DNA from: Candidatus Buchananbacteria bacterium
Lineage (GTDB): Bacteria; Patescibacteriota; Patescibacteriia; 2-01-FULL-39-33; JBAYJR01
Direction of reading: 5' to 3'
Assembly (NCBI GenBank): GCA_041665005.1
Contig: JBAYJR010000005.1
Coordinates: 16,312 to 80,311 of the forward strand
Length of the DNA stretch: 64,000 bases
In this document: in pieces, positions 1,968 through 55,406 of the stretch
Layout: every line of letters starts with the position of its first letter
How positions within the stretch are numbered: the first letter of the stretch is position 1
Notes under the pieces: generated by a model
What the model was told of the DNA's origin: nothing
The model's input: only the letters and a program-made list of their open reading frames with translations
Databases searched by the model: none
Program-made: the position numbers and the translations under genes

Positions 1968-1996
1968 TTGACAAGACTAATAATTTATACTAGAGT
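1968..1996 (+). promoter_or_regulatory. sigma70-like promoter (TTGACA-17-TAGAGT) upstream of the PFK-like gene
   Basis: TTGACA at 1968-1973, a 17-nt spacer, TAGAGT at 1991-1996, and GGAGG at 2021-2025 placed 8 nt before the TTG start at 2034. Confidence 0.35.
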
Positions 1997-2033
1997 AAAA
2001 GCAAAAGTTAGTAAATTTAAGGAGGTATGTACT

Positions 2034-15490: not shown

Positions 15491-15492
15491 AA

Positions 15493-17067: not shown

Positions 17068-17175
17068 AAATAATAGCAAAGCAAACAAATTATAAGGTTA
17101 ATTATAATATAATTTGAGTTTTTTTTCAAATGGGTCGTAAGGTTAGGTATAAACTATTGAAACACTACAAATACT

Positions 17176-40277: not shown

Positions 40278-40298
40278 ATTTTTATAATAACAAAGAAA

Positions 40299-41042
40299 TT
40301 AAACAACTACCGCGCGGGCGCACAAATTAGTATCGCATCTATCATAACGACACATATCAATGCGTATCACTGGATTTGTCCTACCAATAGATCTTACATA
40401 GGGCGTCGTAATCAGAGGCGGCACCTTGCTTCCATCTTTAAAATATGAACCGGCGCAAAGAGTACCGGCGAGAGTATCTAAATTATAACCAGTTTCTTTA
40501 AAATATTTTAATCCGTGAAGTAGCCGTTCTTCCAAAGTTTCTGTAACCAGTCCTTGATCTTTAATCTCTTTAGCGGACAAACCATCAAATTCCACGTCAA
40601 CTTCTTCATCGCGTACCCAAAAGGCGTAAGGGGCTACCGTGGTGCGATCAGAAATAAAGCTATTAATAGCAGTCAGAGCGGGATTAGGTGCTCGTCCATT
40701 AAGTCTTTGAGTGACAGAAAACAACAGATAAGCAGCTAAACCCTGAGCCATAATTAACAAGCGATCAAAACCTTCCTTTTTTTCGGGAATTACTACCTTG
40801 GAAAAGTCACACTCAAGATCAAAAATTTTTTTATAAAAATCTTGCCAATCAATCTTTTTCATTATTTCCTGAAATTCTCTGAGTTCTAACTCCAATTTAA
40901 TTTTAATATCTCTGGCCAAAGCCAAATCATCAGACTTTTTAGAGTCCGAGCTTTCTTGCTTCGCTAATTCCAAATCAAACTCTTTTTTAAGTGCTTCGAG
41001 AGATTTTAGTTTAGTGGTGAGTTCAATGCAAGATTGAGGCAT
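40299..41042 (-). CDS. paralog 2 of the family: shared N-terminal module with an unrelated C-terminal domain
   Basis: MPQSCIELTTKLKSLEALKKEF... N-terminus. The C-terminal ~180 aa show no similarity to paralogs 1, 3 or 5. Confidence 0.45.
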   Translation of the reverse strand: MPQSCIELTTKLKSLEALKKEFDLELAKQESSDSKKSDDLALARDIKIKLELELREFQEIMKKIDWQDFYKKIFDLECDFSKVVIPEKKEGFDRLLIMAQGLAAYLLFSVTQRLNGRAPNPALTAINSFISDRTTVAPYAFWVRDEEVDVEFDGLSAKEIKDQGLVTETLEERLLHGLKYFKETGYNLDTLAGTLCAGSYFKDGSKVPPLITTPYVRSIGRTNPVIRIDMCRYDRCDTNLCARAVVV

Positions 41043-41065
41043 AAAATTATTTAGAAAGATAAAAA

Positions 41066-42091
41066 TTATATAACCTTTACCGCGGTACGAACAGAAAAGT
41101 TAGGGTTATTAGTTGCCGGATGATTCCAATATAACTGGGCTTGATAATACCCAGGAGTATAGAGTTGATTCTGTATTACAAAATAACAATCAAGTAGATG
41201 ATAACCATAATAATTATCAACTATTTGATTTTTTTGTTCTAAATTACTTAAAGCGTAAGTTAGCCAAGATTCTGGAGTTAAGCCTTGTTCACCTTGGTAT
41301 TGCGGATCAGTCTGTAATTGCTTTAAATATTCAATTGGGTTTTTGCCAATTTCAAATTCTTTACGACCAAAAACAACTTGTCCTGTATAAGGAAATTCTG
41401 ATGAATTTTTAAATAATAACGCTTGCCAAGCTTGAGTGGCCAAAAGTTCTGGTTTAGCTTTATCCGGATTATTACCTTCAAAAAAATTTTGGGGGTGATA
41501 AAATAAAAATCCCTCACTATCCCCCTCAAGGTATCTGGTATCATGGTCCGTAAAAAATTCGTCTTTTAGCTCTATTCGTTGTTTGTCAGTGGCCAAAAGC
41601 TCTTTTTTTTCATTAATTTTTACTACTTTTTCACGATAAACCTTGTCTAACAGGGCCGCTGGTAAGCCAAAGGGAACCATAACTAATTCTACAAAACCTT
41701 GTTTAATTTTAGTTTTAAGCAACTCTCGATTTTTTAGCAATCCTTCCTTAACTTGTTCCAAGGTGGGCATTGGATATTCTAAACCATCAATCGCGTGAAT
41801 ACCAAACTCCCCAGTTGACAAAAATTTCAATAAGCCATTTTCTATTAAAATGTCTCTTTGAATATCATATTGGTTTTCAAAATATTCTTCGCTAAATTCT
41901 GGTAGACCAAACCAAGCTTCATTTTGCAAGTCCTTAAGTTCTGATCCTAATTTTTCTTTTATCTTTTCAAGCATAACTAAATCTTCTAGCTTACCGGATG
42001 GTGGCAAATTAGACAGTTCCTGATTAAGCTGGCTTTTAAGAACTTTTATGGCTTCTAGTTTAACAGCAAGTTCGGGGCAGGTTTTTAACAT
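41066..42091 (-). CDS. paralog 3 of the family (full-length type)
   Basis: MLKTCPELAVKLEAIKVLKSQL...; YPMPTLEQV, GFVELVMVPFGLPAALL, LLATQAWQALL and YLKQLQTDPQYQGEQGLTPESWLTYAL. Confidence 0.5.
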   Translation of the reverse strand: MLKTCPELAVKLEAIKVLKSQLNQELSNLPPSGKLEDLVMLEKIKEKLGSELKDLQNEAWFGLPEFSEEYFENQYDIQRDILIENGLLKFLSTGEFGIHAIDGLEYPMPTLEQVKEGLLKNRELLKTKIKQGFVELVMVPFGLPAALLDKVYREKVVKINEKKELLATDKQRIELKDEFFTDHDTRYLEGDSEGFLFYHPQNFFEGNNPDKAKPELLATQAWQALLFKNSSEFPYTGQVVFGRKEFEIGKNPIEYLKQLQTDPQYQGEQGLTPESWLTYALSNLEQKNQIVDNYYGYHLLDCYFVIQNQLYTPGYYQAQLYWNHPATNNPNFSVRTAVKVI

Positions 42092-42119
42092 AAAATATTA
42101 AATTCATTGATCACTTTAT

Positions 42120-43364
42120 TTAATTCACTTTCTCACCATCCCAGATTCTAACAATACCATCTTTGCCAGCAGTAACGATTTTACCGTCAGCTAACATTTG
42201 GAACATACAGTCAGTACTAGTAAATTGTTCAGCTTCTTGATAATCACCTTGCTTGTCTGGTTCTAATATTTTAATCTTGTCATCTCCACTAGCAACAATC
42301 CGATTATCAGGTAAAATTTGTAAACACTCCACCGGTTTTTCGTCAAAGCATTTAATTATTTTGGATTTACTTATTTTAGATTCTTTAAACAGAATTTCCC
42401 CGGTACGATTACCAATAATAACTTGACCATCTGACATGATTTGACTGCTCTTTAAGGAAGCATTTCTACTATCAATATGGCCACTAAAGCTTAAAAAATC
42501 TTGCTTGAAATTACTTCTTTGCTCTTTTAATTCAACATAGTTGCCCTTATCATCCATTTGCCAAATTTTAATCATAGTATCATCGTTGCGCATTTTGTGC
42601 AATGAAACAACCTGGTTATTAGTTAAAATTTTTAGTTCGTCAGGCCATTCATCGTCATAACTACTATGAATATGCTGATTTGGCTGACCATCAGCATCTA
42701 GCAAAAATTTACCTTCGGCGTCTGGCTGCCAAAGTTTAATCTCGGTAGTAGCGCTACCAGCGATAATTCGGCCGTCAGAAAAAACCTGCAAACAAGTAAC
42801 CCAACAAACGGCATGTTTATTATAAAATCCTCTAAAGGTTTGGTTTTGGTAACCACCCTGTTGATCTAAAGTCCAGATGTTGATAATACCATATTGACCA
42901 CCTGAGACAATTTGACCATCAGGTAAAACTTGTAATTTATAATTAGTACCCGATCTTTTTTCAAAAACTTTGTTTTTAAGAACTTTTACCTGATAATCAC
43001 CCTGCTGATCCGGCTGGCAAATTGTAACAGTATTTTCAGTACCACAAACAATCCGACCATCAGGTAAAACTTGCAGAGCATAAATATTTCCATCGTCAAT
43101 TTTAAAGCTTTTTACTTCGTGATAATTTTTTTTCTTTTCTACCGATTCCAGCTCTTTGAAATAAAGATAGGTTTTTTCAACTCGTCGCCAAGCCTCTTGT
43201 GCTAAATTAACTTGTTGCTCTAATTTATTTTTAATATCTCTAGCCAAAATTAAATATTCCGGTTTACCAGTTGATGGCAAATTAGACAGTTCCTGATTAA
43301 ATTGTCTCTGAAGCTCTTTTAGATTACCTAGCTTAATGGAGAGTTCGGGGCAAAGTTGAGACAT
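42120..43364 (-). CDS. paralog 4 of the family: shared N-terminal module fused to a ~7-bladed WD40-like beta-propeller
   Basis: MSQLCPELSIKLGNLKELQRQF... N-terminus, then repeated LQVLPDGRIV.G....I.IW blades (LQVLPDGRIVCG, LQVLPDGQIVSGG, LQVFSDGRIIAG, QIMSDGQVIIG, LQILPDNRIVASG, FQMLADGKIVTAG). Confidence 0.5.
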   Translation of the reverse strand: MSQLCPELSIKLGNLKELQRQFNQELSNLPSTGKPEYLILARDIKNKLEQQVNLAQEAWRRVEKTYLYFKELESVEKKKNYHEVKSFKIDDGNIYALQVLPDGRIVCGTENTVTICQPDQQGDYQVKVLKNKVFEKRSGTNYKLQVLPDGQIVSGGQYGIINIWTLDQQGGYQNQTFRGFYNKHAVCWVTCLQVFSDGRIIAGSATTEIKLWQPDAEGKFLLDADGQPNQHIHSSYDDEWPDELKILTNNQVVSLHKMRNDDTMIKIWQMDDKGNYVELKEQRSNFKQDFLSFSGHIDSRNASLKSSQIMSDGQVIIGNRTGEILFKESKISKSKIIKCFDEKPVECLQILPDNRIVASGDDKIKILEPDKQGDYQEAEQFTSTDCMFQMLADGKIVTAGKDGIVRIWDGEKVN

Positions 43365-43394
43365 AAAATTATAATAACATTAACAACGTAAAAA

Positions 43395-44480
43395 TTATAT
43401 CACACTAATCGCCGAGCGGGTACCAGGAGGCCAAATAAGATCCTTAACCCCTTTATGTGTCGTAAATCTAATTTCAAAATTGCTTCTATTAAAGAATACA
43501 AGCGGTATTGATTTATCATGAACAAAAAAACTACTCAATAACAAACAAGGCACCTTTGAAGCAGCGCTATAAATTTGAAGTTCGGCATCAATGTCGTCTA
43601 TAAATTGATTAGTAGTTTGTAAATGCGTCAAGGCATAAGCTATCCAAGACTCTGGGGTTAAACCTTGTTCACCTTGATACTGTGGATTAGTCTGAAGTTG
43701 TTCAAGATACCAATCAGGTTCCTTGCCAGTTTTTGCCTCTAATTGTTTTCTACCATTAAGAGTTTGGCTTCGGCCTTCTGCCGGTAAATTTGATAAGTCT
43801 TCCACCAATAGCACCTGCCAAGCTTGGGTGGGTAAAAGCTCTAACTTGGTTTTACCTTGATGGTTGGTTTTAGAAAATTTCTTAGGAAAATAAACCAATT
43901 GATCTTTTCCTTGATAATTTTGATCTCGGTTATTTGGCTGGATTTCGCTAATTGGAAAGTGTTTATTGTTGACATCAAAAAGTTTGTTTTGTCGGTGATG
44001 TTCAACCAAAGCTTCACTATAGGCATAAGTTAAACTATCTAAAGTTAAACCAAAGGGAATCATAATCAATTTGGTAAAACCCTGCTTAATTTTAGTTTCA
44101 AAAAATTCTTTTTGCTCAACAAGTTGTTCGCTAATTTGCTTCAAAGTTGGTATAGGATATTCTTTATTATCAATTGCCTGAATTCCTAATTCGCCAATAG
44201 ACAAAGGGTGTATTAAATGAGCCTTTAATAGGATATCAATTTGATTGTCATATTGAACCTTAAGATTTTCTTCGCTAAATTCTGGGGTATCAAGCCAGAG
44301 TTCGTTTTGGAGGTCTTGGAGGGTTTGGTTTAGGTTAAATTTTATATCCCTAACTAAAACCAAATCCTCTGGTTTATTAGGACTTAGACTTTGCGCTTTG
44401 GTTAATTCTTGACCAAACTGTCCTTGGAGCTCTTTTAAAGCTTCTAACTCAGTGGTAAGTTCTAGACAACTTTTTCTCAT
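43395..44480 (-). CDS. paralog 5 of the family (full-length type)
   Basis: MRKSCLELTTELEALKELQGQF...; YPIPTLKQI, GFTKLIMIPFGLTLDSL, LLPTQAWQVLL and YLEQLQTNPQYQGEQGLTPESWIAYAL. Confidence 0.5.
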   Translation of the reverse strand: MRKSCLELTTELEALKELQGQFGQELTKAQSLSPNKPEDLVLVRDIKFNLNQTLQDLQNELWLDTPEFSEENLKVQYDNQIDILLKAHLIHPLSIGELGIQAIDNKEYPIPTLKQISEQLVEQKEFFETKIKQGFTKLIMIPFGLTLDSLTYAYSEALVEHHRQNKLFDVNNKHFPISEIQPNNRDQNYQGKDQLVYFPKKFSKTNHQGKTKLELLPTQAWQVLLVEDLSNLPAEGRSQTLNGRKQLEAKTGKEPDWYLEQLQTNPQYQGEQGLTPESWIAYALTHLQTTNQFIDDIDAELQIYSAASKVPCLLLSSFFVHDKSIPLVFFNRSNFEIRFTTHKGVKDLIWPPGTRSAISVI

Positions 44481-45024: not shown

Positions 45025-47694
45025 CTATTTAGAGGTGTAACTAATCTTTAATTTTTCTTCCACGGCTGCTTGAGCGGCGGCTAACCTAGCAATCGGTACG
45101 CGGTAAGGTGAGCAAGAAACATAATTCATACCCACGCGATGACAAAATTTAACGGAATCTGGGTCGCCACCGTGTTCACCACAAATGCCAATCTTTAAAT
45201 CTTTTTTAACCGACCGACCTAAATTAATACCCATTTGCACTAATTTACCAACGCCGGCTTGGTCTAAAGTTTGAAACGGATCGGCTTTTAAGATTTTCTT
45301 TTCTAAATACACCTTAATAAATTTACCAGAATCGTCACGTGAAAAGCCCATTCCCATTTGCGTTAAGTCATTAGTACCAAAGGAGAAAAAGTCGGCTTCG
45401 GCGGCAATTTCATCAGCCGTCACCGCCGCGCGCGGCACTTCAATCATCGTACCAATCTTGTAAGGCAACTTAACGCCATACTTCTTTAAAGTCTGTTCCG
45501 CAATCGTAATCACTAATTCTTTTTGATTTTTTAATTCGCTAACATTGCCAACCAAGGGAATCATAATTTCGGGCACTACTTTTATTTTGTCTTCTTTATA
45601 CAATTCACAGGCCGCGGAAATTATGGCTTCGGTTTGCATTTCGGTAATTTCGGGATAAGTAATACCTAAGCGACAACCGCGGTGCCCCAACATGGGATTA
45701 AATTCGTGCAGTTCATTGGACTTAGCCCAAATCTTTTCGGCTGGCACGCCAATTTTCTTGGATAAAATTTCTGCTTCTTCCTTGGTCTTGGGCACAAATT
45801 CATGCAACGGTGGATCTAAAAATCTAATGGTCACCGGAAAGCCCTTCATTTCTTTAAACAAACCTTTAAAATCGTTTTTTTGGAACGGTAATAACTTGGC
45901 CAAGGCTTTGCGGCGATCTTCCACTTTTTCCGCAATAATCATTTCTTGCATAAACGGTAAACGTTCTTCGGCAAAAAACATATGTTCCGTGCGACATAAG
46001 CCGATTCCTTCAGCCCCAAAGCTTTTGGCAACTTTAGCATCGCGAGGAATGTCGGCATTAGCGCGCACGCCAATCTTTTTTATTTCATTGACCCACTTCA
46101 TAAACACACCAAATTCGCCGGTCATTTGCGGTTCCACCGTGGCTACTTTACCAATAATTACTTCACCGGTAGAACCATTGATGGTTAAATAATCCCCTTC
46201 GCTTAAAGTTTGACCGTTCAAGATTAATTTTTTTGTATGTTCATTAACTTTAATTTCTTCGCAACCCGCTACGCAACATTTACCCATCCCCCGCGCTACC
46301 ACCGCCGCATGCGAAGTCATGCCTCCGCGTGCTGTCAAAATACCTTGGGCGGCATCCATACCATGAATGTCGTCTGGACAAGTTTCGGTGCGTACTAAAA
46401 TAACTTTTTCTGTTTCGCCTAATTCTACCGCCCGGTCCGAAGTAAAGACAATTTTACCCACCGCCGCACCAGGTGAAGCCGGTAAACCTTTGGCCGCCAC
46501 GCTGTATTTGGCTTTAGGGTCAATAATGGGATGTAATAATTGATTTAATTGTTCAGGCTCCACGCGCATAATCGCCTCTTGTTTGGTAATCAATTTTTCC
46601 TTAACCATATCTACCGCTAATTTCACCGCGGCTTGCGCGGTGCGCTTGCCCGTGCGAGTTTGCAACATATACAACACATCTTGTTCAATGGTAAATTCAA
46701 AATCTTGCACATCACGATAATGCTTTTCTAATTTTTTGGTAATGGTATGTAGTTGTTTAAAAGCTTTGGGCATTTCTTTGGCCAAATTAGCAATTGGTCG
46801 TGGAGTACGAATACCGGCCACCACATCTTCACCTTGAGCGTTAGTTAAATATTCACCATAAAACACATTATCACCATTAGCCGGGTTACGGGTAAAACCC
46901 ACCCCCGTGGCGCAATCTTCGCCCATATTACCAAACACCATGGCTTGCACATTAACCGCCGTGCCTAAATTATCTGCAATTTTATTTAAGCGACGATAAG
47001 TAATGGCTCGCGGATTCATCCAACTATTAAACACGGCATTACGGGCCATTTCTAATTGTTTAATTACTTCTTGCGGAAACTCTTTACCAGTCCGTTCTTT
47101 AACTAAAGTTTTATATTCTTTAATAATGCTTTGCAAATCTTCGGCGCGTAATTCGGTGTCTAATTTAATTTTTAAACTTTCTTTTTTGGCGGTTAAAATT
47201 TCTTCAAATTCTTCTTTAGCAATTTCTAACACCACATTACCAAACATTTGAATAAAACGACGATAAGCATCATAACCAAACCGTGGATTGTTGGTTTTAG
47301 CAATTAGACCTTTGACCGTTTCATCATTTAAACCTAAATTTAAAATAGTATCCATCATGCCAGGCATGGAAAATTTTGCGCCCGAACGAACAGATAGTAA
47401 TAACGGATTTTTAATCTCACCAAGCTTTTTACCAGTCGCCTTTTCTACCTTAGTTAAGGCCGCCAACATTTGACCATTTAATTCTTTGGGTAATTTTTGT
47501 TTATTAGCATCATAATAATTACAAACTTCAGTGGTGATAGTAAAACCTGGAGGCACGGGTACACCCGTGTTGGTCATTTCGGCTAAACCGGCACCCTTAC
47601 CGCCTAATAAATCTTTCATTTGTCCATTGCCTTCAGCCCGACCGTGGCCAAAAAAATAAACAAACTTACCTTTTTTGGAAGAACTTTTTTTCAT
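45025..47694 (-). CDS. ppdK: pyruvate, phosphate dikinase
   Basis: 889 aa. N-terminus KFVYFFGHG...LLGGKGAGLAEM; central phospho-His swivel (GGMTSHAAVVARGMG); C-terminal PEP/pyruvate TIM barrel (RFLDPPLHEF..GTNDLTQ). Confidence 0.9.
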   Translation of the reverse strand: MKKSSSKKGKFVYFFGHGRAEGNGQMKDLLGGKGAGLAEMTNTGVPVPPGFTITTEVCNYYDANKQKLPKELNGQMLAALTKVEKATGKKLGEIKNPLLLSVRSGAKFSMPGMMDTILNLGLNDETVKGLIAKTNNPRFGYDAYRRFIQMFGNVVLEIAKEEFEEILTAKKESLKIKLDTELRAEDLQSIIKEYKTLVKERTGKEFPQEVIKQLEMARNAVFNSWMNPRAITYRRLNKIADNLGTAVNVQAMVFGNMGEDCATGVGFTRNPANGDNVFYGEYLTNAQGEDVVAGIRTPRPIANLAKEMPKAFKQLHTITKKLEKHYRDVQDFEFTIEQDVLYMLQTRTGKRTAQAAVKLAVDMVKEKLITKQEAIMRVEPEQLNQLLHPIIDPKAKYSVAAKGLPASPGAAVGKIVFTSDRAVELGETEKVILVRTETCPDDIHGMDAAQGILTARGGMTSHAAVVARGMGKCCVAGCEEIKVNEHTKKLILNGQTLSEGDYLTINGSTGEVIIGKVATVEPQMTGEFGVFMKWVNEIKKIGVRANADIPRDAKVAKSFGAEGIGLCRTEHMFFAEERLPFMQEMIIAEKVEDRRKALAKLLPFQKNDFKGLFKEMKGFPVTIRFLDPPLHEFVPKTKEEAEILSKKIGVPAEKIWAKSNELHEFNPMLGHRGCRLGITYPEITEMQTEAIISAACELYKEDKIKVVPEIMIPLVGNVSELKNQKELVITIAEQTLKKYGVKLPYKIGTMIEVPRAAVTADEIAAEADFFSFGTNDLTQMGMGFSRDDSGKFIKVYLEKKILKADPFQTLDQAGVGKLVQMGINLGRSVKKDLKIGICGEHGGDPDSVKFCHRVGMNYVSCSPYRVPIARLAAAQAAVEEKLKISYTSK

Positions 47695-48048: not shown

Positions 48049-48179
48049 ATGACATTATTATAATAGATAATAGTTTAAGGTGCAAGAGGGTGTAATCTTT
48101 CTAAGATAACAAATAGAGATTGCCGCGCTACGCTCGTAATGACAGCTAGGGATAACAGTTTGCCGACTGTGCACAGTTC

Positions 48180-48208
48180 TTGACAAAATTCAAAAAGTGT
48201 GCTATGTT
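48180..48208 (+). promoter_or_regulatory. array-A promoter copy 1 (TTGACA-aaattcaaaaagtgtgc-TATGTT)
   Basis: The 23-nt core TTGACAAAATTCAAAAAGTGTGC is repeated verbatim at 49117. Confidence 0.45.
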
Positions 48209-48275
48209 TAAATATCTATAATAAACTAAGGTTTATTAAGATAAATTTTTTAATACCCACAAGGAGGGTAAAAAA

Positions 48276-49055
48276 ATGAGTAGCACATTAAAAATCTTCG
48301 TCGCCTGCTTTTCAGGCGGAATTATCGGCGGTTTGGTTGCTCTGCAACTCCACCCCGAAATTTGGTGGCTTGGTATGGTGGTCGGTTTTTTAACTGGCTA
48401 CCTAACTTATGACTTCAAGCAAGTCATAAGCGCAGTAAAATATGTGGGAAAAAGTTATATACCTGCGTATTTCAGAACCTTACCCATTCGGTATAAATTT
48501 TTTAAATACGCCCTGGTTGCTGTCGCTACTATTTATAACGGTATAATGGCCGGCTGTATAATTATGTATGGCTTAATAGGCTTGGCGGCACCATCCCAGC
48601 CAAAAGTTTTAAAGACTATAATGGAACTTGCAGAGATGGTTATTGCTATGAACTCAGCTCCCTTAATATTGGTAGCCATTTTTTCCTTAGTGGGATCTTT
48701 TCCTCACTTTAGTGAAATTAAAGATGCCAAACGAAGAGCAAAAGAAATTAACCCCATTGCTATCACTAAATCATGTGTCCGGTGGGGATTAAAAATTGCC
48801 CGCAACACCCCAGAATTTTTTAATAAGTGTTTAACATTTATTAAAATTTTCTGCCAAATCATAACAAAAGTTTTCCGGATAATTCATTCGGATAACCGGC
48901 TGATTTGCGGAGTTTATTCCGCAATTGCTGCCAGTATCTGTTTCTTCACCGGCAACGCGTTGATTGGCGCACTGATTGGCGCAGTACTCGGCGTGATCAG
49001 TAAAAAAACAATCGGCTATTGGCTTGCAAAAAACCCGATAGCAATCAAATCCTAA
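48276..49055 (+). CDS. array-A gene 1: polytopic membrane protein (259 aa), hypothetical
   Basis: GGAGGG SD 8 nt before the ATG; at least 6 TM helices. Confidence 0.5.
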   Translation: MSSTLKIFVACFSGGIIGGLVALQLHPEIWWLGMVVGFLTGYLTYDFKQVISAVKYVGKSYIPAYFRTLPIRYKFFKYALVAVATIYNGIMAGCIIMYGLIGLAAPSQPKVLKTIMELAEMVIAMNSAPLILVAIFSLVGSFPHFSEIKDAKRRAKEINPIAITKSCVRWGLKIARNTPEFFNKCLTFIKIFCQIITKVFRIIHSDNRLICGVYSAIAASICFFTGNALIGALIGAVLGVISKKTIGYWLAKNPIAIKS

Positions 49056-49076
49056 TCTTATTGCAAAATCAACCAG

Positions 49077-49110
49077 CAGATGAACCAAAAATTCATCTGC
49101 TTTTTATTTT
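49077..49110 (+). terminator. array-A terminator copy 1 (GCAGATGAA-ccaaaaa-TTCATCTGC + T-run)
   Basis: An identical 25-nt hairpin recurs at 49558 and 50059. Confidence 0.55.
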
Positions 49111-49116
49111 GAACTA

Positions 49117-49145
49117 TTGACAAAATTCAAAAAGTGTGCTATATA
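49117..49145 (+). promoter_or_regulatory. array-A promoter copy 2 (TTGACA-17-TATATA)
   Basis: Same -35 and spacer as copy 1. Confidence 0.45.
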
Positions 49146-49172
49146 TAAACTAAATAATAAGGAGGAAAAACT

Positions 49173-49544
49173 ATGCTATACCTAAAAATATCCATGTGTT
49201 TAGCAGCCGCATTAGTCATTGCTTGTGGTGCAATGCTAGTGGTTATAGGAGTTGGTCTACATACTGGGCTAGATATGACTCAGGTAATAAATGAAAATAT
49301 AATGAGTATTTTTACGTTTATTTTTTGCATTATCACAGGAATCATTTTAGCATTGCTCGACTCCTATCTATTTAAAAAAGGAGCCGTCAAGGATAACCGC
49401 AGGTATTTAATGATTCTGGCAACGCTTGTTTTTTTTGTTGCCAGCGTATTGTCGCTCCGTTATGGTAAAGTTATACCAGTAATTTTAATACTCACGATTA
49501 TTGCTTTAAATGGAGTGGTAATAAAGAGTTGGTTTAAAAAATAG
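49173..49544 (+). CDS. array-A gene 2: small 4-TM membrane protein (123 aa)
   Basis: AGGAGG SD; hydrophobic. Confidence 0.5.
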   Translation: MLYLKISMCLAAALVIACGAMLVVIGVGLHTGLDMTQVINENIMSIFTFIFCIITGIILALLDSYLFKKGAVKDNRRYLMILATLVFFVASVLSLRYGKVIPVILILTIIALNGVVIKSWFKK

Positions 49545-49557
49545 CGCGCAATCCATT

Positions 49558-49592
49558 GCAGATGAACCAAAAATTCATCTGCTTTTTTATTT
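49558..49592 (+). terminator. array-A terminator copy 2
   Basis: Identical hairpin GCAGATGAACCAAAAATTCATCTGC followed by TTTTTT. Confidence 0.55.
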
Positions 49593-49599
49593 AATACTC

Positions 49600-49628
49600 T
49601 TGACAAAATTAAAGTACAATGCTATAAA
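49600..49628 (+). promoter_or_regulatory. array-A promoter copy 3 (TTGACA-17-TATAAA)
   Basis: TTGACAAAATT... is a variant of the copy 1/2 core. Confidence 0.4.
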
Positions 49629-49662
49629 TTTATTAAATCTACAAATAAAAGGAGGGATTAAT

Positions 49663-50049
49663 ATGTTAGAAAGGCCGAGCATTGCTTTAACAGAAGAAGA
49701 ACCCTGGTCCTGGTTAAAAATAATTATTGCATTCACAGTAGTGTTGACCTGTATTTCTTCTTATATCTATGGCGCAGCCGCAAAACTAAGCATGGTTTCT
49801 TTATTACTTGCTCTGGTTTTTATTACCATTAGCTGTGTAATAGACGACCTGAAAAGTATAAAAAGAGGAAACTATGGATTCAGAAGACATTCTATATTTT
49901 CTATAATGTTTTTTGTGTTTGCAATTGTGGCTGGCTATAGAATTAGCGGGATTATTTCCGCAATTATATTTGTTCCTATGATCCCCTATTTTTATGGGCT
50001 CGTTAAGAACAAGTTTATGAACCGGGATATCCGCGAAAACCCCACCTAA
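49663..50049 (+). CDS. array-A gene 3: small 4-TM membrane protein (128 aa)
   Basis: AAAGGAGGG SD, then ATG at 49663. The track ORF begins at an upstream TTG inside the promoter. Confidence 0.5.
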   Translation: MLERPSIALTEEEPWSWLKIIIAFTVVLTCISSYIYGAAAKLSMVSLLLALVFITISCVIDDLKSIKRGNYGFRRHSIFSIMFFVFAIVAGYRISGIISAIIFVPMIPYFYGLVKNKFMNRDIRENPT

Positions 50050-50058
50050 AAAACAACA

Positions 50059-50093
50059 GCAGATGAACCAAAAATTCATCTGCTTTTTATTTA
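50059..50093 (+). terminator. array-A terminator copy 3
   Basis: Identical hairpin followed by TTTTTATTT. Confidence 0.55.
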
Positions 50094-50217
50094 ATATGGA
50101 AGTGGATTGCTTTTTTATCCCCCTCTCTTAAGGTAAGAGAGGGCTGGGGGTGAGTTATGAGCGATTACATAATTATAACCCCTCCTTGATCCTCCCCTTA
50201 TATTAAGGGGAGAAATA

Positions 50218-51246: not shown

Positions 51247-51301
51247 TTAATTAAAAGTGTAAAGTTAAAAGTTATAAAGTAGGAAGTAAATACATATTTA
51301 G

Positions 51302-51685: not shown

Positions 51686-51737
51686 AAAAATAGAGATTAG
51701 AGATAAGAGATAAGAGATATGAGATTAGGGATTTAAA

Positions 51738-51890
51738 TTATTCAACTTTTTTGGGAATAAAATAAATAAACCAAATTATCCAAACCAACCAAAGTGTATC
51801 TAACCAATCTTTAGTAAAAACTCCTGGTATGCCTAATAAGAATAAAAAACCTAAGAAACCCAAGTACCAATTTTTTTGTAGTTTTTTCAT
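51738..51890 (-). CDS. possible small membrane peptide (50 aa)
   Basis: ATG-initiated sub-ORF (MKKLQKNWYLGFLGFLFLLGIPGV...) of the track ORF 51738..51977, whose listed start is a TTG. Confidence 0.25.
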   Translation of the reverse strand: MKKLQKNWYLGFLGFLFLLGIPGVFTKDWLDTLWLVWIIWFIYFIPKKVE

Positions 51891-51982
51891 AGGAGTAAAG
51901 ATTAGAGATAAAATTGCTTCGTCTCCGCCAGCTGGCGGATCCTCGCAATGACATAAAAAGAGAGGTCGGGATGACAAAAAGA

Positions 51983-52711: not shown

Positions 52712-52872
52712 AAGATTATGAAGTTAAAAGTTAAAAAGTATAAAGTTGAAAGTAAGGACTAAACGAGGGATAAAGTTAAAAGTTAAAAAGTTTAAAGTAA
52801 ATAATACAACTATATTTTCTCACTTTTCGGCTATAATGTCAAAAGAAGAGATTGGCACGTTAATCCGGTTAT

Positions 52873-52900
52873 TGACAAAATTTTAAAAACCAGTTATGCT
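52873..52900 (+). promoter_or_regulatory. array-B promoter 1 (TTGACA-16-TATGCT)
   Basis: Followed by AGGAGG and ATG 52939. Confidence 0.4.
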
Positions 52901-52938
52901 GAGTTTGAAAATTATAAAATTTTTAGGAGGAAATCGCA

Positions 52939-53295
52939 ATGACTGCGAAAAAAACCACTTTACAAAAAGAGTTTTTAGAAAAAAAGGTTGGGGAATTTAC
53001 AGTTACTTTTACAAAAAAAATGATTGCCCCAAAAAATACGAGGATACCGTTAACGGTATCCCATGGAAAACGTAAAAACAAAACTCACATAACACTGGGG
53101 CTGATAGTTGCACCCAGGCCAGGAGTTTTTAAGCAAAAAATACTTTGTGGCATGATTGATGAAATCATCGTCACTAAAAAAGCGGAAGTAAGTTTTATTG
53201 TCGCTTTTGCTTTCATTGAACAAGACGGCAACATCGTTAATCGGCAACTACCGATGCGATATGACCAGCTAGTTGCTAAACAATCGAGAAGCTGA
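52939..53295 (+). CDS. array-B gene 1: small hypothetical protein (118 aa)
   Basis: Strong SD, its own promoter and its own terminator. Confidence 0.5.
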   Translation: MTAKKTTLQKEFLEKKVGEFTVTFTKKMIAPKNTRIPLTVSHGKRKNKTHITLGLIVAPRPGVFKQKILCGMIDEIIVTKKAEVSFIVAFAFIEQDGNIVNRQLPMRYDQLVAKQSRS

Positions 53296-53306
53296 ACATC
53301 TCTAAG

Positions 53307-53340
53307 CCCTAATCAATAAGATTAGGGTTTTTTTATTTAA
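53307..53340 (+). terminator. array-B terminator copy 1 (CCCTAATC-aataa-GATTAGGG + T7)
   Basis: An identical 21-nt hairpin recurs at 54061, 54727 and 55358. Confidence 0.55.
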
Positions 53341-53387
53341 ATCAATTCCCCTACTTTTTTGTGCTTACAACAATAAAAAACAGATGG

Positions 53388-53416
53388 TTGACATTGATAG
53401 GTAAAAGTGTTAAGGT
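53388..53416 (+). promoter_or_regulatory. array-B promoter 2 (TTGACA-17-TAAGGT, weak -10)
   Basis: AGGAGG at 53435, ATG at 53449. Confidence 0.35.
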
Positions 53417-53448
53417 TTTAATAATTTACAACAAAGGAGGAAAAAATT

Positions 53449-54036
53449 ATGAACACAACTTGGCAGTTTGAAGAACAGGAAAAAAGAGAAAAAGCCGAGG
53501 CGGAATTACTGGCTGAACAAACCATCGCCAAAGAGCAAATAACTAAACTTTGGGAAAAATTTTTAGAGTTGAACAATCAACTAATTCCTAGCTTAAAATT
53601 AACTATTCAAAAAAGAGATTTTGGTTTTATTCTTGGTTATGACGATCCTGGCTATCATAGTTATAGAGATTTAATAGCTATTACTATCTATACGGACGAA
53701 TTACTGAGTAAGCCCGGTAACGAATCATGTATGCAAATATGCGGCGATTACCCGATACGCTACCGGGACAACCTAAAAATGTTTGAAATACAGAACAATG
53801 ACTATCACTCTATGTTTTTCAAACTCGATGATCAAGTCTTAATTGAAGAATTTTTTCGTTTAATCATCTGCAATCCTAGAGGAATAAGTGATCTTATCAA
53901 AAGTAAATGGCAAGAAGCAAAAAGTATTGAAGCGCCTGAAAGCCCTGGTCTTACGCTATATCTTCCGCAAGAACCGGTTAGCCTGTGGGAATCATTCAAA
54001 AATATGATGAATGATTTTTTTAATTTTTTTAAATAA
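53449..54036 (+). CDS. array-B gene 2: hypothetical protein (195 aa), distant paralog of genes 3 and 4
   Basis: Shared motifs LWEKFLELNNQL and YHSMFFKLDDQVLIEEFFRLIICN. Confidence 0.5.
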   Translation: MNTTWQFEEQEKREKAEAELLAEQTIAKEQITKLWEKFLELNNQLIPSLKLTIQKRDFGFILGYDDPGYHSYRDLIAITIYTDELLSKPGNESCMQICGDYPIRYRDNLKMFEIQNNDYHSMFFKLDDQVLIEEFFRLIICNPRGISDLIKSKWQEAKSIEAPESPGLTLYLPQEPVSLWESFKNMMNDFFNFFK

Positions 54037-54060
54037 AATTATCCGTCTAAAGAACCCAAA

Positions 54061-54094
54061 CCCTAATCAATAAGATTAGGGTTTTTTTATTTAA
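54061..54094 (+). terminator. array-B terminator copy 2
   Basis: Identical hairpin followed by TTTTTTTATTT. Confidence 0.55.
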
Positions 54095-54135
54095 ATCAAC
54101 TCCCCGCCTTTTTGTAGTGTGGCTAAATTAATCGG

Positions 54136-54164
54136 TTGACAGTTACCAAAAATAATGCTATGGT
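54136..54164 (+). promoter_or_regulatory. array-B promoter 3 (TTGACA-17-TATGGT)
   Basis: GGAGGG at 54184, ATG at 54196. Confidence 0.4.
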
Positions 54165-54195
54165 GTAAATAATTAAAACCAATGGAGGGACAAAA

Positions 54196-54711
54196 ATGAA
54201 CCAAAGATATAACGACGCCACCAGGTATAAACTTTACAGAATTGAGATACTTTGGAAAAAATTTTTACAACTAAACGAAAAAATGGAACCGGCAAAAAAA
54301 TTGAAGTGCATTAACGAACCTTGTTTCTGGCTAAACGAATTTTCGCCGGAACAACTAATACGAGGAAAGCCGGATTTAAAAAAATTAGATTTTGTTTTAA
54401 AACTAATAAAGCCCAGAAACAACGATGCCGAACCGGCAATCCAGCTAGAAGTGGGGTTTATTAATTACTCAATCTCGAGAAACTGCTACCACTTTGAGAT
54501 TCCCGATCATCCAACGATTTCGCATTATTTTTTCCTGATTGAAAATACCGAGTTTGTTGCCGGATTATTTAATTGTATTGTGGCTGGTGATTTTATAAAC
54601 TTACCAGCACCACCAGTTTTACCAGCCAAGGCCAAGCCAGACAGCCTTTTAACCAAATTTAAATTTTGGCTAAAGGATTATAAGGACTGGCTCAAAAGCA
54701 TACTTTGCTAA
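54196..54711 (+). CDS. array-B gene 3: hypothetical protein (171 aa), paralog of genes 2 and 4
   Basis: ILWKKFLQLNEKM and ISHYFFLIENTEFVAGLFNCIVAG. Confidence 0.5.
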   Translation: MNQRYNDATRYKLYRIEILWKKFLQLNEKMEPAKKLKCINEPCFWLNEFSPEQLIRGKPDLKKLDFVLKLIKPRNNDAEPAIQLEVGFINYSISRNCYHFEIPDHPTISHYFFLIENTEFVAGLFNCIVAGDFINLPAPPVLPAKAKPDSLLTKFKFWLKDYKDWLKSILC

Positions 54712-54726
54712 TTATGCAAACCAAAA

Positions 54727-54755
54727 CCCTAATCAATAAGATTAGGGTTTTTATT
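54727..54755 (+). terminator. array-B terminator copy 3
   Basis: Identical hairpin followed by TTTTT. Confidence 0.55.
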
Positions 54756-54770
54756 ACATCTAAGATTAGA

Positions 54771-54799
54771 TTGACATTCTTGCCCTAAGTTGTTAAAAT
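54771..54799 (+). promoter_or_regulatory. array-B promoter 4 (TTGACA-17-TAAAAT)
   Basis: GAGGAGG at 54817, ATG at 54831. Confidence 0.4.
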
Positions 54800-54830
54800 C
54801 TTGATAATTTACAATTGAGGAGGAAAAACG

Positions 54831-55370
54831 ATGGAAATAAGTGCTAAGAGTATTCAAAAACAAAAAGAAAAGGAAGAAATTATTAAGGCCAAACAGAAAG
54901 CCATAAAAGAGGCTATTTTGTGGCTGTGGTCCAGGATTCCGCATTTTTGTGAGCAACTCGACAACTACAAACTGGATGGGGTTTGTCCACCAGGCTATAT
55001 TCAATGTTACATTTGTCGTCAACGATTTGACGTACCTGACTATGCTCTATGGCTGAATATAAGAAATGATACGGGTGGAATATATTATTGTATTGAAATT
55101 GGTGACCGCATTATGCATTTACAAGGATGTATCAAATACGATCCACGAAAAGAAAGGTTTGAGCTCTATTGCTATTATCACCCCAAACATAAAGTACATT
55201 ATTTTAATTTTCAAGATAATGCCTTTATTAAAACCTTAATTGAGGGAATTGCCTTAAACAAAAAAGTTGACGATCTCTATCATGATTTGGATGCGCTAGC
55301 CCCACCCTTGAAAATTTTTGTTTTTTTTAAAAAAATAAAAAAACTTTTTACCAAAAACCCTAATCAATAA
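54831..55370 (+). CDS. array-B gene 4: Cys/His-rich hypothetical protein (179 aa), paralog of genes 2 and 3
   Basis: VHYFNFQDNAFIKTLIEGIALN and several C/H pairs (CPPGYIQCYICRQ...HLQGC...CYYHPKH). The stop codon lies in the loop of the terminator hairpin. Confidence 0.5.
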   Translation: MEISAKSIQKQKEKEEIIKAKQKAIKEAILWLWSRIPHFCEQLDNYKLDGVCPPGYIQCYICRQRFDVPDYALWLNIRNDTGGIYYCIEIGDRIMHLQGCIKYDPRKERFELYCYYHPKHKVHYFNFQDNAFIKTLIEGIALNKKVDDLYHDLDALAPPLKIFVFFKKIKKLFTKNPNQ

Positions 55371-55388
55371 GATTAGGGTTTTTTATTC
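55358..55388. terminator. array-B terminator copy 4 (bidirectional with the GerMN gene)
   Basis: Identical hairpin followed by TTTTTTATTC. Confidence 0.55.
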
Positions 55389-55406
55389 TATAAAGAAAAC
55401 AAAAAA

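What the first reader, a model, noticed from the sequence alone, without database searches (positions are those of the whole stretch)
48170..50095. Array A: three small membrane-protein genes with a verbatim-repeated promoter and an identical 25-nt terminator hairpin
GCAGATGAACCAAAAATTCATCTGC followed by T5-6 occurs identically at 49077, 49558 and 50059. The promoter core TTGACAAAATTCAAAAAGTGTGC is identical at 48180 and 49117 and related at 49600. The three products (259, 123 and 128 aa) are all polytopic membrane proteins with no obvious mutual similarity. The layout matches array B 3 kb downstream: same orientation, own promoter, SD and terminator per gene, but with a different hairpin sequence. 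Two independent arrays built on the same design suggest a general mechanism in this organism that packages small accessory genes as autonomous cassettes.
Basis: seen in the sequence. Interest (0 to 1): 0.7.

Follow-up and report, generated by a model that had tools for sequence, protein, structure and literature searches.

The report
ORFan gene array sharing terminator–promoter modules
Three unrelated small membrane-protein genes in an uncultured Candidatus Buchananbacteria genome each carry a copy of the same promoter and the same terminator hairpin, a layout so far described in T4-type phages, but whether the units move cannot be tested with the data available.

Summary
The 25-nt hairpin occurs three times exactly (49076, 49558, 50059; 0 expected). 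The 23-nt promoter core occurs twice exactly, with a third related copy. Array B has four genes and four copies of a different hairpin.

The three array A genes are single-gene transcription units: a near-consensus sigma-70 promoter, AGGAGG, the coding sequence, then a hairpin and U-run. They sit head-on inside a housekeeping chromosomal block of a Ca. Buchananbacteria MAG. No ORF of 110 aa or more in the 64 kb matches a recombinase, transposase or phage family.

A2 and A3 have no homologue in 5.8 billion proteins. A1 belongs to a small, scattered, non-syntenic family. The three coding sequences are unrelated by every sequence test run, yet A1 and A2 share 26/26 promoter bases, and all hairpins are 25/25 inside unalignable flanks. 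So the regulatory modules spread independently of the genes.

The closest known analogue is the PeSL composite terminator/promoter cassette that flanks ORFans in T4-type phages. Here the setting is chromosomal and each array has its own hairpin.

A "general mechanism" is not shown. The hairpins occur nowhere else in about 66 kb of this contig or in the public collections. No close relative exists for comparison. Mobility is untested.

The parts
48180..48208 (+). Promoter P_A1: -35 TTGACA, 17-nt spacer AAATTCAAAAAGTGTGC (TGn extended -10), -10 TATGTT
   Evidence: It is 26/26 identical to P_A2 from the -35 box to TAT.
48276..49055 (+). A1, a 259-aa polytopic membrane protein (NCBI MFA6428427.1, WCW02_02675). 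AGGAGG lies at 48263-48268.
   Evidence: There are 13 distant homologues (25-33% identity over most of the length, or 42-46% over only 21-26% of the query) with conserved N- and C-terminal parts and a hypervariable middle. No Pfam, PDB or fold match was found.
49075..49105 (+). Terminator T1: 10-bp stem, 7-nt loop CCAAAAA, then T5. Predicted dG is -12.8 kcal/mol.
49117..49145 (+). Promoter P_A2: TTGACA, N17, TATATA, with TGn. It starts 16 nt after the T1 hairpin, so T1 and P_A2 form one composite junction of about 70 nt.
49173..49544 (+). A2, a 123-aa protein with about 4 TM segments and no homologue (MFA6428428.1). AGGAGG lies at 49160-49165.
49558..49588 (+). Terminator T2: 9-bp stem, the same loop, then T6. 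Predicted dG is -11.8 kcal/mol.
49600..49628 (+). Promoter P_A3: TTGACA, N17 (11/17 versus P_A1 and P_A2), TATAAA, with TGn.
49663..50049 (+). A3, a 128-aa protein with about 4 TM segments and no homologue (MFA6428429.1). AGGAGG lies at 49650-49655.
50058..50088 (+). Terminator T3: 10-bp stem, the same loop, then T5. It faces the convergent rlmN gene.
52872..53337 (+). Array B unit 1: an A-type promoter (TTGACAAAATT), B1 (118 aa, 52939-53295), and a B-type hairpin at 53304-53330 followed by T7.
53388..54091 (+). Array B unit 2: promoter, B2 (195 aa, 53449-54036), hairpin at 54058-54084.
54136..54753 (+). Array B unit 3: promoter, B3 (171 aa, 54196-54711), hairpin at 54723-54750.
54771..55389 (+). 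Array B unit 4: promoter, B4 (179 aa, 54831-55370), hairpin at 55353-55383. The B4 reading frame runs into the hairpin, and its stop codon TAA (55368-55370) lies in the loop.

Best explanation
Array A is a lineage-specific cluster of three independently transcribed accessory genes for small polytopic membrane proteins. It lies head-on inside a housekeeping chromosomal block of a Candidatus Buchananbacteria (Patescibacteria/CPR) MAG.

Each unit has a near-consensus sigma-70 promoter (TTGACA, N17, TGn-TATxxx), a 20-60-nt leader, AGGAGG 7 nt before the ATG, the coding sequence, and a 9-10-bp stem with a 7-nt loop followed by U5-6, which is an intrinsic terminator. Between genes, the terminator and the next promoter form one composite junction module of about 70 nt. 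This module insulates each gene and stops read-through into the convergent rlmN gene. The anatomy is read directly from the sequence. The promoter and terminator functions are predicted in silico.

The junction modules were copied between unrelated coding sequences. I infer that this happened by homologous or slipped-strand recombination, or by gene conversion, among the 26-37-nt identical segments. This is the mechanism proposed for the PeSL composite terminator/promoter cassettes of T4-type phages. Crossing over between two modules deletes or duplicates a whole expression unit and always restores an intact junction. A circle carrying one module could re-insert at another module. The array would then act as a small, integrase-free shuffling site for ORFan genes, and continued exchange would keep the hairpins identical.

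The biochemical role of the three membrane proteins remains unknown.
For: Anatomy:
- Exact repeats at the stated positions.
- All seven array promoters have a 6/6 TTGACA box and a 17-nt spacer.
- Hairpin dG ranges from -11.8 to -16.1 kcal/mol, with z-scores of -4.3 to -6.8 against shuffles.
- The annotated frame is the best of six by codon statistics for all seven genes.

Accessory, lineage-specific nature:
- A2, A3 and B2 match only themselves.
- A1 has 13 distant homologues in unrelated contexts.
- Codon scores of A1-A3 (0.04-0.08) lie more than 3 SD below the native genes (0.316 +/- 0.076).
- All other ORFs of 110 aa or more, except PFK, are on the opposite strand.
- Every neighbouring ORF that matches a Pfam family is housekeeping or metabolic.
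- In five distant relatives rlmN lies within about 1.5 kb of the Germane-domain gene (adjacent in L005 and L017), with no array between them.

Modules moved independently of the coding sequences:
- The A1 family profile against A2 and A3 gives hhalign probabilities of 3.4% and 0.1%.
- No DNA or frameshifted similarity exists among the three coding sequences.
- Shuffle z-scores are 1.1-3.3, no better than against an unrelated membrane protein.
- Even so, P_A1 equals P_A2 over 26/26 bases, and T1, T2 and T3 are 25/25, while the 20 nt upstream of each hairpin match at only 1-8/20.
- The identities are mosaic. P1 equals P2, but the flanks of T1 match those of T3 (36 nt exact). B1 combines an A-type promoter with a B-type terminator.
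- In B4 the hairpin module supplies the stop codon.

Rarity:
- 84 other loci (1.2 Mb, mostly Patescibacteria) contain no locally repeated exact 18-mer with 3 or more copies. Only two of them hold a 2-copy terminator-like hairpin.

Precedent:
- PeSLs are composite sigma-70 promoter plus stem-loop terminator motifs placed immediately upstream of ORFans, and they mediate modular shuffling (PMC2839356 and PMC4122927).
Against: - No event of recombination, excision or cassette variation has been observed. No close relative or strain variant could be found: rlmN relatives reach at most 54% identity, and the Germane-gene search found nothing in metagenomes.
- Only 3 and 4 copies exist, each hairpin private to its own array. 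PeSLs number about 50 per phage genome.
- In P_A3 the conservation falls exactly on the functional elements (-35, TGn, -10), with the spacer at 11/17. That pattern also fits old duplication under purifying selection.
- B2, B3 and B4 are true paralogues (z = 7.1, 4.3, 3.3). Whole-unit duplication certainly operates next door.
- A2 and A3 have the same size and a similar 2+2 TM layout, so extreme divergence from one ancestor is not excluded.
- Identity of 25-37 nt is at the lower limit for RecA-dependent exchange (general knowledge, not tested here).
Confidence: 0.45

Rival explanations
1. Whole-unit tandem duplication followed by extreme divergence. One promoter-gene-terminator unit was duplicated twice. 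The coding sequences then diverged beyond recognition through diversifying selection or relaxed constraint on head-on, rapidly evolving membrane proteins. The promoter boxes and the terminator were held by purifying selection.
For: - B2, B3 and B4 in the neighbouring array are detectable paralogues at about 25% identity that kept identical hairpins.
- A2 and A3 are the same size, each with about 4 TM segments and a central basic loop.
- P_A3 differs from P_A1 and P_A2 mainly in the spacer, like a phylogenetic footprint.
Against: - A1 belongs to an old family whose members in other organisms are stand-alone genes with other promoters and terminators. Its profile does not match A2 or A3, yet A1 shares a 26/26 promoter, spacer included, with A2.
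- Terminator function does not require a fixed loop or fixed stem letters. Even so, all 7 loop bases and all stem bases are invariant in 3 copies, and 21/21 in the 4 copies of array B, while adjacent bases are at background identity.
- There is no residual DNA or frameshifted similarity among the coding sequences.
Confidence: 0.25
2. Sequence-specific cis-regulatory sites. The identical promoter spacer is an operator, and the identical hairpin is a binding or processing site for an RNA-binding protein or RNase. The sequences would then be kept identical by selection for co-regulation of a small regulon, not by recombination.
For: - The invariant loop and the invariant promoter spacer in P_A1 and P_A2 exceed what generic promoter and terminator function requires.
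- In L001 an A1 homologue is flanked by repeated modules that carry a palindrome (TTTGCCGAAATAGGCAAA) next to the promoter. This shows that operator-type repeats occur around this family elsewhere.
Against: - Two adjacent arrays use two different hairpins. That would need two dedicated trans-factors in what is expected to be a very small genome.
- The P_A1/P_A2 spacer is not palindromic, and P_A3 does not keep it.
- No regulator gene lies beside the arrays.
Confidence: 0.12
3. Short dispersed palindromic repeats (REP- or MITE-like) that happen to have landed after neighbouring genes and double as terminators.
For: - Repeated hairpins after genes do occur in Patescibacteria. L020 has three copies of a hairpin element after housekeeping genes.
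- Another palindromic repeat type is present at 48116 and about 51914 in this window.
Against: - All 3 copies of hairpin A and all 4 copies of hairpin B lie inside their own array, always 3-22 nt after a stop codon or overlapping it. None lies elsewhere in about 66 kb.
- The public collections searched contain no copy.
- No RAYT or IS200-type family was matched by any ORF of 110 aa or more in the window.
- The promoters are repeated too, which REP elements do not explain.
Confidence: 0.08
4. Site-specific recombination cassettes (integron-like), with the hairpin acting as an attC-type site.
For: The array is same-orientation, made of unrelated small genes, each followed by an inverted repeat.
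Against: - No tyrosine recombinase or any other recombinase family was matched in 64 kb.
- The hairpin is a perfect 25-nt palindrome. It has no R/L boxes, no GTTRRRY core and no extrahelical bases (read).
- Every gene has its own strong promoter, unlike integron cassettes.
Confidence: 0.03

Closest known systems
PeSL (promoter-early stem-loop) composite terminator/promoter cassettes of T4-type phages (Arbiol et al. 2010, PMC2839356; Comeau et al. 2014, PMC4122927)
   Same: - An intergenic composite of a strong sigma-70-type promoter and a stem-loop terminator, ending at the SD and start codon of the next gene.
- Placed immediately upstream of small ORFans of unknown function in a variable region.
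- The repeated modules flank unrelated genes.
- One PeSL subclass has the stem-loop upstream of the -35 box, as here.
   Different: - The host is a bacterial chromosome (Ca. Buchananbacteria), not a phage. No phage genes or phage similarity were found.
- There are only 3-4 copies per family, strictly local, and each array has its own hairpin. PeSLs number about 50 per phage genome.
- The hairpins are A/T-rich perfect palindromes rather than polyG/polyC stems.
- Recombination, indels between relatives and mini-circles were shown for PeSLs. None of these could be tested here.
Tandem paralogue clusters diversified by recombination at a short conserved segment, such as the S. aureus lpl cluster (Tsuru & Kobayashi 2008, PMC2568036)
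   Same: - A same-orientation tandem array of small envelope-associated proteins.
- A short, highly conserved DNA segment repeated once per unit amid variable sequence, proposed as the homologous-recombination site.
- Array B (B2-B4) is a true tandem paralogue cluster.
   Different: - In lpl the conserved segment lies inside the ORF and the genes are clear paralogues.
- Here the conserved segments are the intergenic terminator and promoter, and the array A coding sequences are unrelated.
Integron gene-cassette arrays
   Same: Same-orientation unrelated small genes, each followed by an inverted repeat, with many ORFans.
   Different: - No integrase and no attI.
- The hairpin lacks attC features.
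- Each gene has its own promoter and a Rho-independent terminator.
REP/BIME-type extragenic palindromes
   Same: A palindrome of 25-27 nt just downstream of stop codons that can terminate transcription or stabilise transcripts.
   Different: - Not dispersed within the DNA available.
- Perfect rather than imperfect palindromes.
- Coupled to a repeated promoter.
- No RAYT-type transposase family matched.

Membership tests
PeSL regulatory cassettes (T4-type phages) | Intergenic composite of a sigma-70-like promoter and a stable stem-loop | tested here: met
   TTGACA-N17-TGnTATxxx starts 16 nt after a 9-10-bp hairpin at both internal junctions of array A. Array B has the same arrangement.
PeSL regulatory cassettes (T4-type phages) | Placed immediately upstream of ORFans or genes of unknown function in a plastic region | tested here: met
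   A2, A3 and B2 match only themselves. A1 belongs to a rare family. None of the seven genes hits Pfam, PHROGs, NCBIfam or PADLOC.
PeSL regulatory cassettes (T4-type phages) | Resides in a T4-like phage genome, about 50 copies concentrated in hyperplastic regions | tested here: not met
   The context is chromosomal and housekeeping (MreB, glycolysis, rlmN, PPDK). No phage match was found. There are 3 and 4 copies, each confined to one array.
PeSL regulatory cassettes (T4-type phages) | Promoter and terminator activity shown experimentally | not testable with these tools
   Only in-silico support is available: consensus boxes and dG of -11.8 to -12.8 kcal/mol with a U-run.
PeSL regulatory cassettes (T4-type phages) | Recombination between modules produces indels between close relatives and mini-circles | not testable with these tools
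   No close relative exists in the collections. The only evidence is indirect mosaicism: P1 equals P2, the T1 flanks match the T3 flanks, and B1 combines an A-type promoter with a B-type terminator.
Integron cassette array | Adjacent intI tyrosine recombinase and attI | tested here: not met
   Pfam scans of all other ORFs of 110 aa or more that do not overlap a longer ORF matched no recombinase family. The seven array genes were scanned, also with no such hit.
Integron cassette array | attC sites (57-141 nt, R''-L''/L'-R' boxes, GTTRRRY core, extrahelical bases) | tested here: not met
   The hairpin is a 25-nt perfect palindrome with a 7-nt loop and no GTTRRRY (read).
Integron cassette array | Cassettes mostly promoterless, expressed from Pc | tested here: not met
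   Each gene has its own consensus promoter and terminator.
REP/BIME or MITE-type dispersed repeat | Many copies dispersed through extragenic space genome-wide | tested here: inconclusive
   There are no copies outside the arrays in about 66 kb of the 82.5-kb contig, and none in the public collections searched. The rest of the MAG could not be read.
REP/BIME or MITE-type dispersed repeat | Associated RAYT/IS200-type transposase, or terminal inverted repeats with target-site duplication | tested here: not met
   No such family was matched in the window. No TIR or TSD surrounds the junction modules.
Tandem paralogue cluster | Member genes are homologous to one another | tested here: not met
   For array A, shuffle z-scores are 1.1-3.3 (a control pair gives 2.7), hhalign probabilities are 3.4% and 0.1%, and tblastx and blastn find nothing. 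The feature is met for B2, B3 and B4 in array B.

The most novel reading that the evidence does not exclude
A RecA- or slippage-driven, integrase-free gene-cassette system operates in a CPR bacterial chromosome. Composite terminator-promoter junctions, a chromosomal counterpart of phage PeSLs, let whole ready-to-express ORFan units be excised as circles, duplicated, lost or inserted. This would create local 'ORFan nurseries' on the lagging strand, in which new or foreign small proteins are tried out without disturbing neighbouring operons.
Probability: 0.2. Interest if true: 0.75.

Novelty: new variant of a known kind. Interest (0 to 1): 0.45.

Why it matters
CPR/Patescibacteria genomes are small and contain many genes of unknown function. 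How such ORFans arise, are expressed and turn over is poorly understood. Composite terminator-promoter modules that travel independently of coding sequences would give a simple recombination-based route, needing no dedicated enzyme, for adding and removing insulated single-gene units in a streamlined chromosome. Until now this route has been documented only in T4-type phages. If the arrays are instead static, the locus is just a small lineage-specific gene cluster with locally duplicated regulatory DNA. It would still be useful as a source of defined CPR promoter and terminator parts.

Tried and rejected
- Genome-wide census. Hairpin A gave 0 hits in genome contigs, metagenome contigs and viral contigs. 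The hairpin B core gave 0 hits in viral contigs. The source contig itself is not in the first two collections, so this shows only that the hairpins are not widespread elsewhere.
- Extending beyond the window. Only about 2.2 kb at one end (L086) and about 0.9 kb at the other (L087) could be added. About 15.4 kb of the 82.5-kb contig and the rest of the MAG stayed out of reach.
- Synteny in relatives. The best rlmN relative in GTDB representatives is only 54% identical. There are no A or B homologues near rlmN, and gene order is poorly conserved. The Germane-protein search of metagenomes found nothing.
- Function of the proteins. Pfam, PHROGs, PADLOC and NCBIfam gave only sub-threshold hits of the kind hydrophobic segments produce, to holin, glycine-zipper, TauE and SLATT families. 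PDB sequence searches found nothing. The AF2 model of A1 (pLDDT 74) had no Foldseek match in the PDB (best E = 0.43, TM = 0.18). The afdb50 library was unavailable.
- B2's single database hit (P0019) is spurious: a 25-aa match multiplied by a tandem repeat.
- Frameshifted paralogy among A1, A2 and A3 was tested with tblastx. None was found.
- Phage or plasmid origin. No protein or DNA match to 50,697 phage records. Plasmids were not searched.
- Known RNA families and tRNA genes. Rfam and ARAGORN found nothing in the window.
- An A1-family search of viral contigs failed because the alignment has no stretch conserved enough to search with.
- Assembly artefact. Rejected on the basis of the independent Logan contig L004.
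Full report
**What is in the sequence**

The 25-nt palindrome GCAGATGAACCAAAAATTCATCTGC occurs three times, exactly, on the + strand at 49076, 49558 and 50059. No further copy appears even with three mismatches, and no shuffle of the window gives a match. Each copy is followed by T5 or T6. Each folds into a 9-10-bp stem with a 7-nt loop, with dG of -11.8 to -12.8 kcal/mol and z-scores of -4.3 to -6.8 against shuffles.

TTGACAAAATTCAAAAAGTGTGC is exact at 48180 and 49117. The identity actually runs 26 nt, from the -35 box through the whole 17-nt spacer into the -10 box. The third promoter, at 49600, keeps TTGACAAAATT, the TGn motif and TATAAA, but only 11/17 of the spacer.

Each promoter is followed by AGGAGG 7 nt before an ATG. 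The three ORFs are 259, 123 and 128 aa. The 149-aa mechanical ORF for A3 starts at the TTG of its own -35 box, so the 128-aa form, which NCBI also calls, is the sensible one. Hydropathy windows give 5-6 hydrophobic segments in A1 and about four each in A2 and A3.

Array B (52872-55389) repeats the design with four genes of 118, 195, 171 and 179 aa, none with a hydrophobic segment in the hydropathy scan. It carries four copies of a different hairpin, whose 21-nt core is identical in all copies.

An independent Logan assembly of run SRR6484324 contains A2, the middle hairpin and A3 at 100% identity. That contig ends inside hairpins 1 and 3, which I read as assembly breaks at a repeat. The array is therefore not a mis-assembly.

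**Context**

A1 is identical to MFA6428427.1 (WCW02_02675) of a Candidatus Buchananbacteria MAG, on an 82,510-bp contig. Of the 59 ORFs of 110 aa or more in the window, all but four long genes or gene sets lie on the - strand. The exceptions are PFK, array A and array B, apart from two short ORFs nested inside longer genes.

I scanned with Pfam every ORF of 110 aa or more that does not overlap a longer ORF. Those that match a family are housekeeping or metabolic: DNA polymerase III delta', MreB, glycosyltransferases, iPGM, enolase, PGK, PPDK, a hydrogenase, EamA transporters, RlmN, an SDR and a Germane-domain protein. Several match nothing. None matches an integrase, transposase or phage family.

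There are no tRNA genes and no Rfam hits. GC content across the arrays is unremarkable. The arrays are small, head-on insertions in a core chromosomal block.

**The genes**

- A2 and A3 match only themselves among 5.8 billion clustered proteins.
- B2 matches only itself in a full HMMER pass over 1.8 billion representatives. The one other hit is a repeat artefact.
- A1 has 13 distant homologues. Most align at 25-33% identity over most of their length; three match at 42-46% over only 21-26% of the query. The family has a conserved N-terminal part of about 55 aa, a conserved C-terminal part of about 60 aa (H204, S205, R208 and C211 invariant) and a hypervariable middle.
- The A1 homologues sit as stand-alone genes in unrelated neighbourhoods, with their own different promoters and terminators.
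- None of the seven array proteins hits Pfam, PHROGs, PADLOC or NCBIfam above noise. The PDB sequence searches run for A1, A2 and A3 found nothing.
- An AlphaFold model of A1 (pLDDT 74; above 90 in the conserved ends) has no Foldseek match in the PDB.
- Codon statistics pick the annotated frame as the best of six for all seven genes. However, A1-A3 score 0.04-0.08 against 0.316 +/- 0.076 for the native genes, and against 0.20-0.38 for two native small membrane proteins.

The genes therefore look like real coding sequences that are compositionally atypical, which fits young, foreign or fast-evolving genes.

**The key contrast**

The three array A coding sequences are unrelated by every sequence test I could run:
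- Local-alignment z-scores against shuffles are 1.1-3.3, no better than A2 against the unrelated DUF5654 protein (2.7).
- The A1-family profile against A2 and A3 gives hhalign probabilities of 3.4% and 0.1%.
- tblastx and sensitive blastn find nothing in any frame.

Yet P_A1 and P_A2 are 26/26 identical, including a spacer that has no generic functional constraint. The three hairpins are 25/25, including all seven loop bases, while the 20 nt immediately upstream of the hairpins match at only 1-8/20.

Array B shows the same thing more sharply. Its promoter spacers are at background identity (4-8/17), but the hairpin core is 21/21 in all six pairwise comparisons. The B2-B3-B4 proteins are nonetheless true, old paralogues (z = 7.1, 4.3, 3.3; about 25% identity).

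The identities are also mosaic:
- P1 equals P2, whereas the flanks of T1 match those of T3 (36 nt exact) rather than T2.
- B1, which is unrelated to B2-B4, carries an A-type promoter. TTGACAAAATT occurs only four times in the window, at A1, A2, A3 and B1. The B1 promoter region is 18/21 identical to that of P_A1, and B1 ends with a B-type terminator.
- The B4 frame runs into its hairpin and uses a TAA in the loop as its stop codon.

Together these points indicate that the promoter and terminator modules have histories separate from the coding sequences they flank.

**How unusual is it?**

I examined 84 other loci: 80 rlmN neighbourhoods, mostly Patescibacteria, plus four contigs carrying A1 homologues, 1.2 Mb in total. 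No locus has three or more locally spaced copies of any exact 18-mer. Only two carry a two-copy terminator-like hairpin. One of these, L020, is a REP-like element placed after housekeeping genes.

The layout is therefore not a generic CPR feature. Hairpin A is absent from 185,579 representative genomes, from the JGI metagenome collection and from IMG/VR. Hairpin B is absent from IMG/VR, the only collection searched for it.

**Mechanism**

The transcriptional reading is straightforward and well supported in silico. There are three monocistronic units driven by near-consensus extended -10 promoters. Each is closed by an intrinsic terminator, and the terminator plus the next promoter form a junction of about 70 nt. 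This junction insulates the units and protects the convergent rlmN gene.

For the origin of the repeats, I favour local propagation of the junction modules by homologous or slipped-strand exchange, or by gene conversion. The direct repeats are 26-37 nt long and spaced 0.5-0.9 kb apart. Exchange between them would delete or duplicate a whole unit and regenerate an intact junction. A single crossover with a circle carrying one module would insert a unit and duplicate the module. Continued exchange would also explain why the hairpins stay letter-perfect.

This is the mechanism proposed, and partly demonstrated, for PeSLs. PeSLs are composite sigma-70 promoter and stem-loop terminator motifs that sit upstream of ORFans in the hyperplastic regions of T4-type phages (PMC2839356, PMC4122927). 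In the searchable literature PeSLs are reported only in phages.

I could not observe any recombination product. No close relative or strain variant exists in the collections: rlmN relatives reach at most 54% identity, and the Germane-gene search found nothing. About 15.4 kb of the contig and the rest of the MAG were out of reach. I put this explanation at 0.45.

**Rivals**

- Whole-unit duplication with extreme divergence and purifying selection on the regulatory boxes (0.25). It is supported by B2-B4, by the similar size and topology of A2 and A3, and by the footprint-like pattern in P_A3. It does not explain why A1, a member of an old independent family, shares a spacer-perfect promoter with A2, or why loops and stems never vary.
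- Sequence-specific cis-regulatory roles for the spacer and the hairpin (0.12). This would explain the invariance but needs separate factors for two private hairpins.
- A dispersed REP-like repeat (0.08). This is disfavoured by the strictly local distribution but needs the full genome to exclude.
- An integron-like system (0.03). It fails on integrase, attC features and promoterless cassettes.

**Verdict**

- The genes are accessory ORFans with shared portable regulatory modules.
- The arrays are not independent of each other.
- Part of array B is plain tandem paralogy.
- No recombination machinery or recombination site is visible.
- A "general mechanism" rests on a single locus.

I classify this as a new variant of a known kind: PeSL-like composite terminator-promoter cassettes in a CPR chromosome, with array-private hairpins. 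Interest is moderate.

Noticed in passing
window 48116-48144 and about 51914-51954: Two palindromic repeat elements in the same orientation: GAGATTGCCGCGCTACGCTCGTAATGACA and ATTGCTTCGTCTCCGCCAGCTGGCGGATCCTCGCAATGACA. One lies just upstream of P_A1. The other lies inside the 5' part of the mechanical ORF 51738-51977, whose real start is probably the internal MKKLQKN. Together they bracket array A, rlmN and two small membrane-protein genes. From memory, they resemble a widespread short-repeat type whose translations appear in many MAG 'hypothetical proteins'.
   Followed up: partly
window 51254-51299, 51690-51735, 52720-52817: Short-period purine-rich repeats (AAAGTTAAAAGT... and GAGATAAGAGATAAGAGATA...) lie directly upstream, on the - strand, of rlmN, the 127-aa membrane-protein gene and the SDR gene. 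They may be leader or UP-element-like motifs shared by these - strand genes.
   Followed up: no
window 1-64000: Strand bias is extreme. Apart from PFK (1968-3080) and the two arrays, and two short ORFs nested inside longer genes, every ORF of 110 aa or more is on the - strand. The + strand GC skew is negative overall (-0.038) and over most of the 40-60 kb profiled. The arrays therefore probably face replication head-on.
   Followed up: partly
window 55347-55383: The B4 reading frame continues into the terminator hairpin (…FTKNPNQ*). Its TAA stop codon (55368-55370) is part of the hairpin loop, so the terminator module supplies the end of the gene.
   Followed up: yes
window 52868-52900: The promoter of B1, the first gene of array B, is of the array A type: GTTATTGACAAAATTTTAAAA against GTTCTTGACAAAATTCAAAAA, 18/21. 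B1's terminator is of the array B type, so this unit combines one module from each array.
   Followed up: yes
L001 5490-5760 and 6880-7150 (ENA ERZ27247591 k141_1815152): The A1 homologue P0007 is flanked by two copies of a 146-nt module (85% identical). The module holds the palindrome TTTGCCGAAATAGGCAAA, a TTGACA…TGCTATAAT promoter and a short reverse-strand ORF (MKKVRTWIDENYL…) that differs by synonymous changes. The palindrome region occurs 5 times in 4 kb. Neighbouring genes encode HEPN, PDDEXK/Cas4-like, SDH-protease and pentapeptide proteins, which looks like a defence island.
   Followed up: partly
L020 6450-6495, 6815-6860, 7800-7850: Three copies of an element that combines TGTGGATAA (the reverse complement of a DnaA-box consensus) with the hairpin GGTCAAGGCCNGGCCTTGACC. 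The first and third follow a 150-aa ORF of unknown function and a gene that looks like a cysteine synthase; the middle copy lies in the intergenic region between them. The host is an uncultured Patescibacteria-like genome.
   Followed up: no
window 39228-44480 (- strand): Four adjacent genes (349, 341, 414 and 361 aa; one hits WD40/beta-propeller models) share exact repeats of 18-26 nt. This suggests another tandem paralogue family just upstream of the PPDK gene.
   Followed up: no
window 13895-17088 and 45025-47694 / 57882-62444: Central-metabolism genes are duplicated. Two adjacent iPGM paralogues (557 and 531 aa) are present. A canonical PPDK (889 aa) is accompanied by a 1520-aa protein with a PPDK_N domain and three PEP-utilizer mobile-domain stretches.
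   Followed up: no
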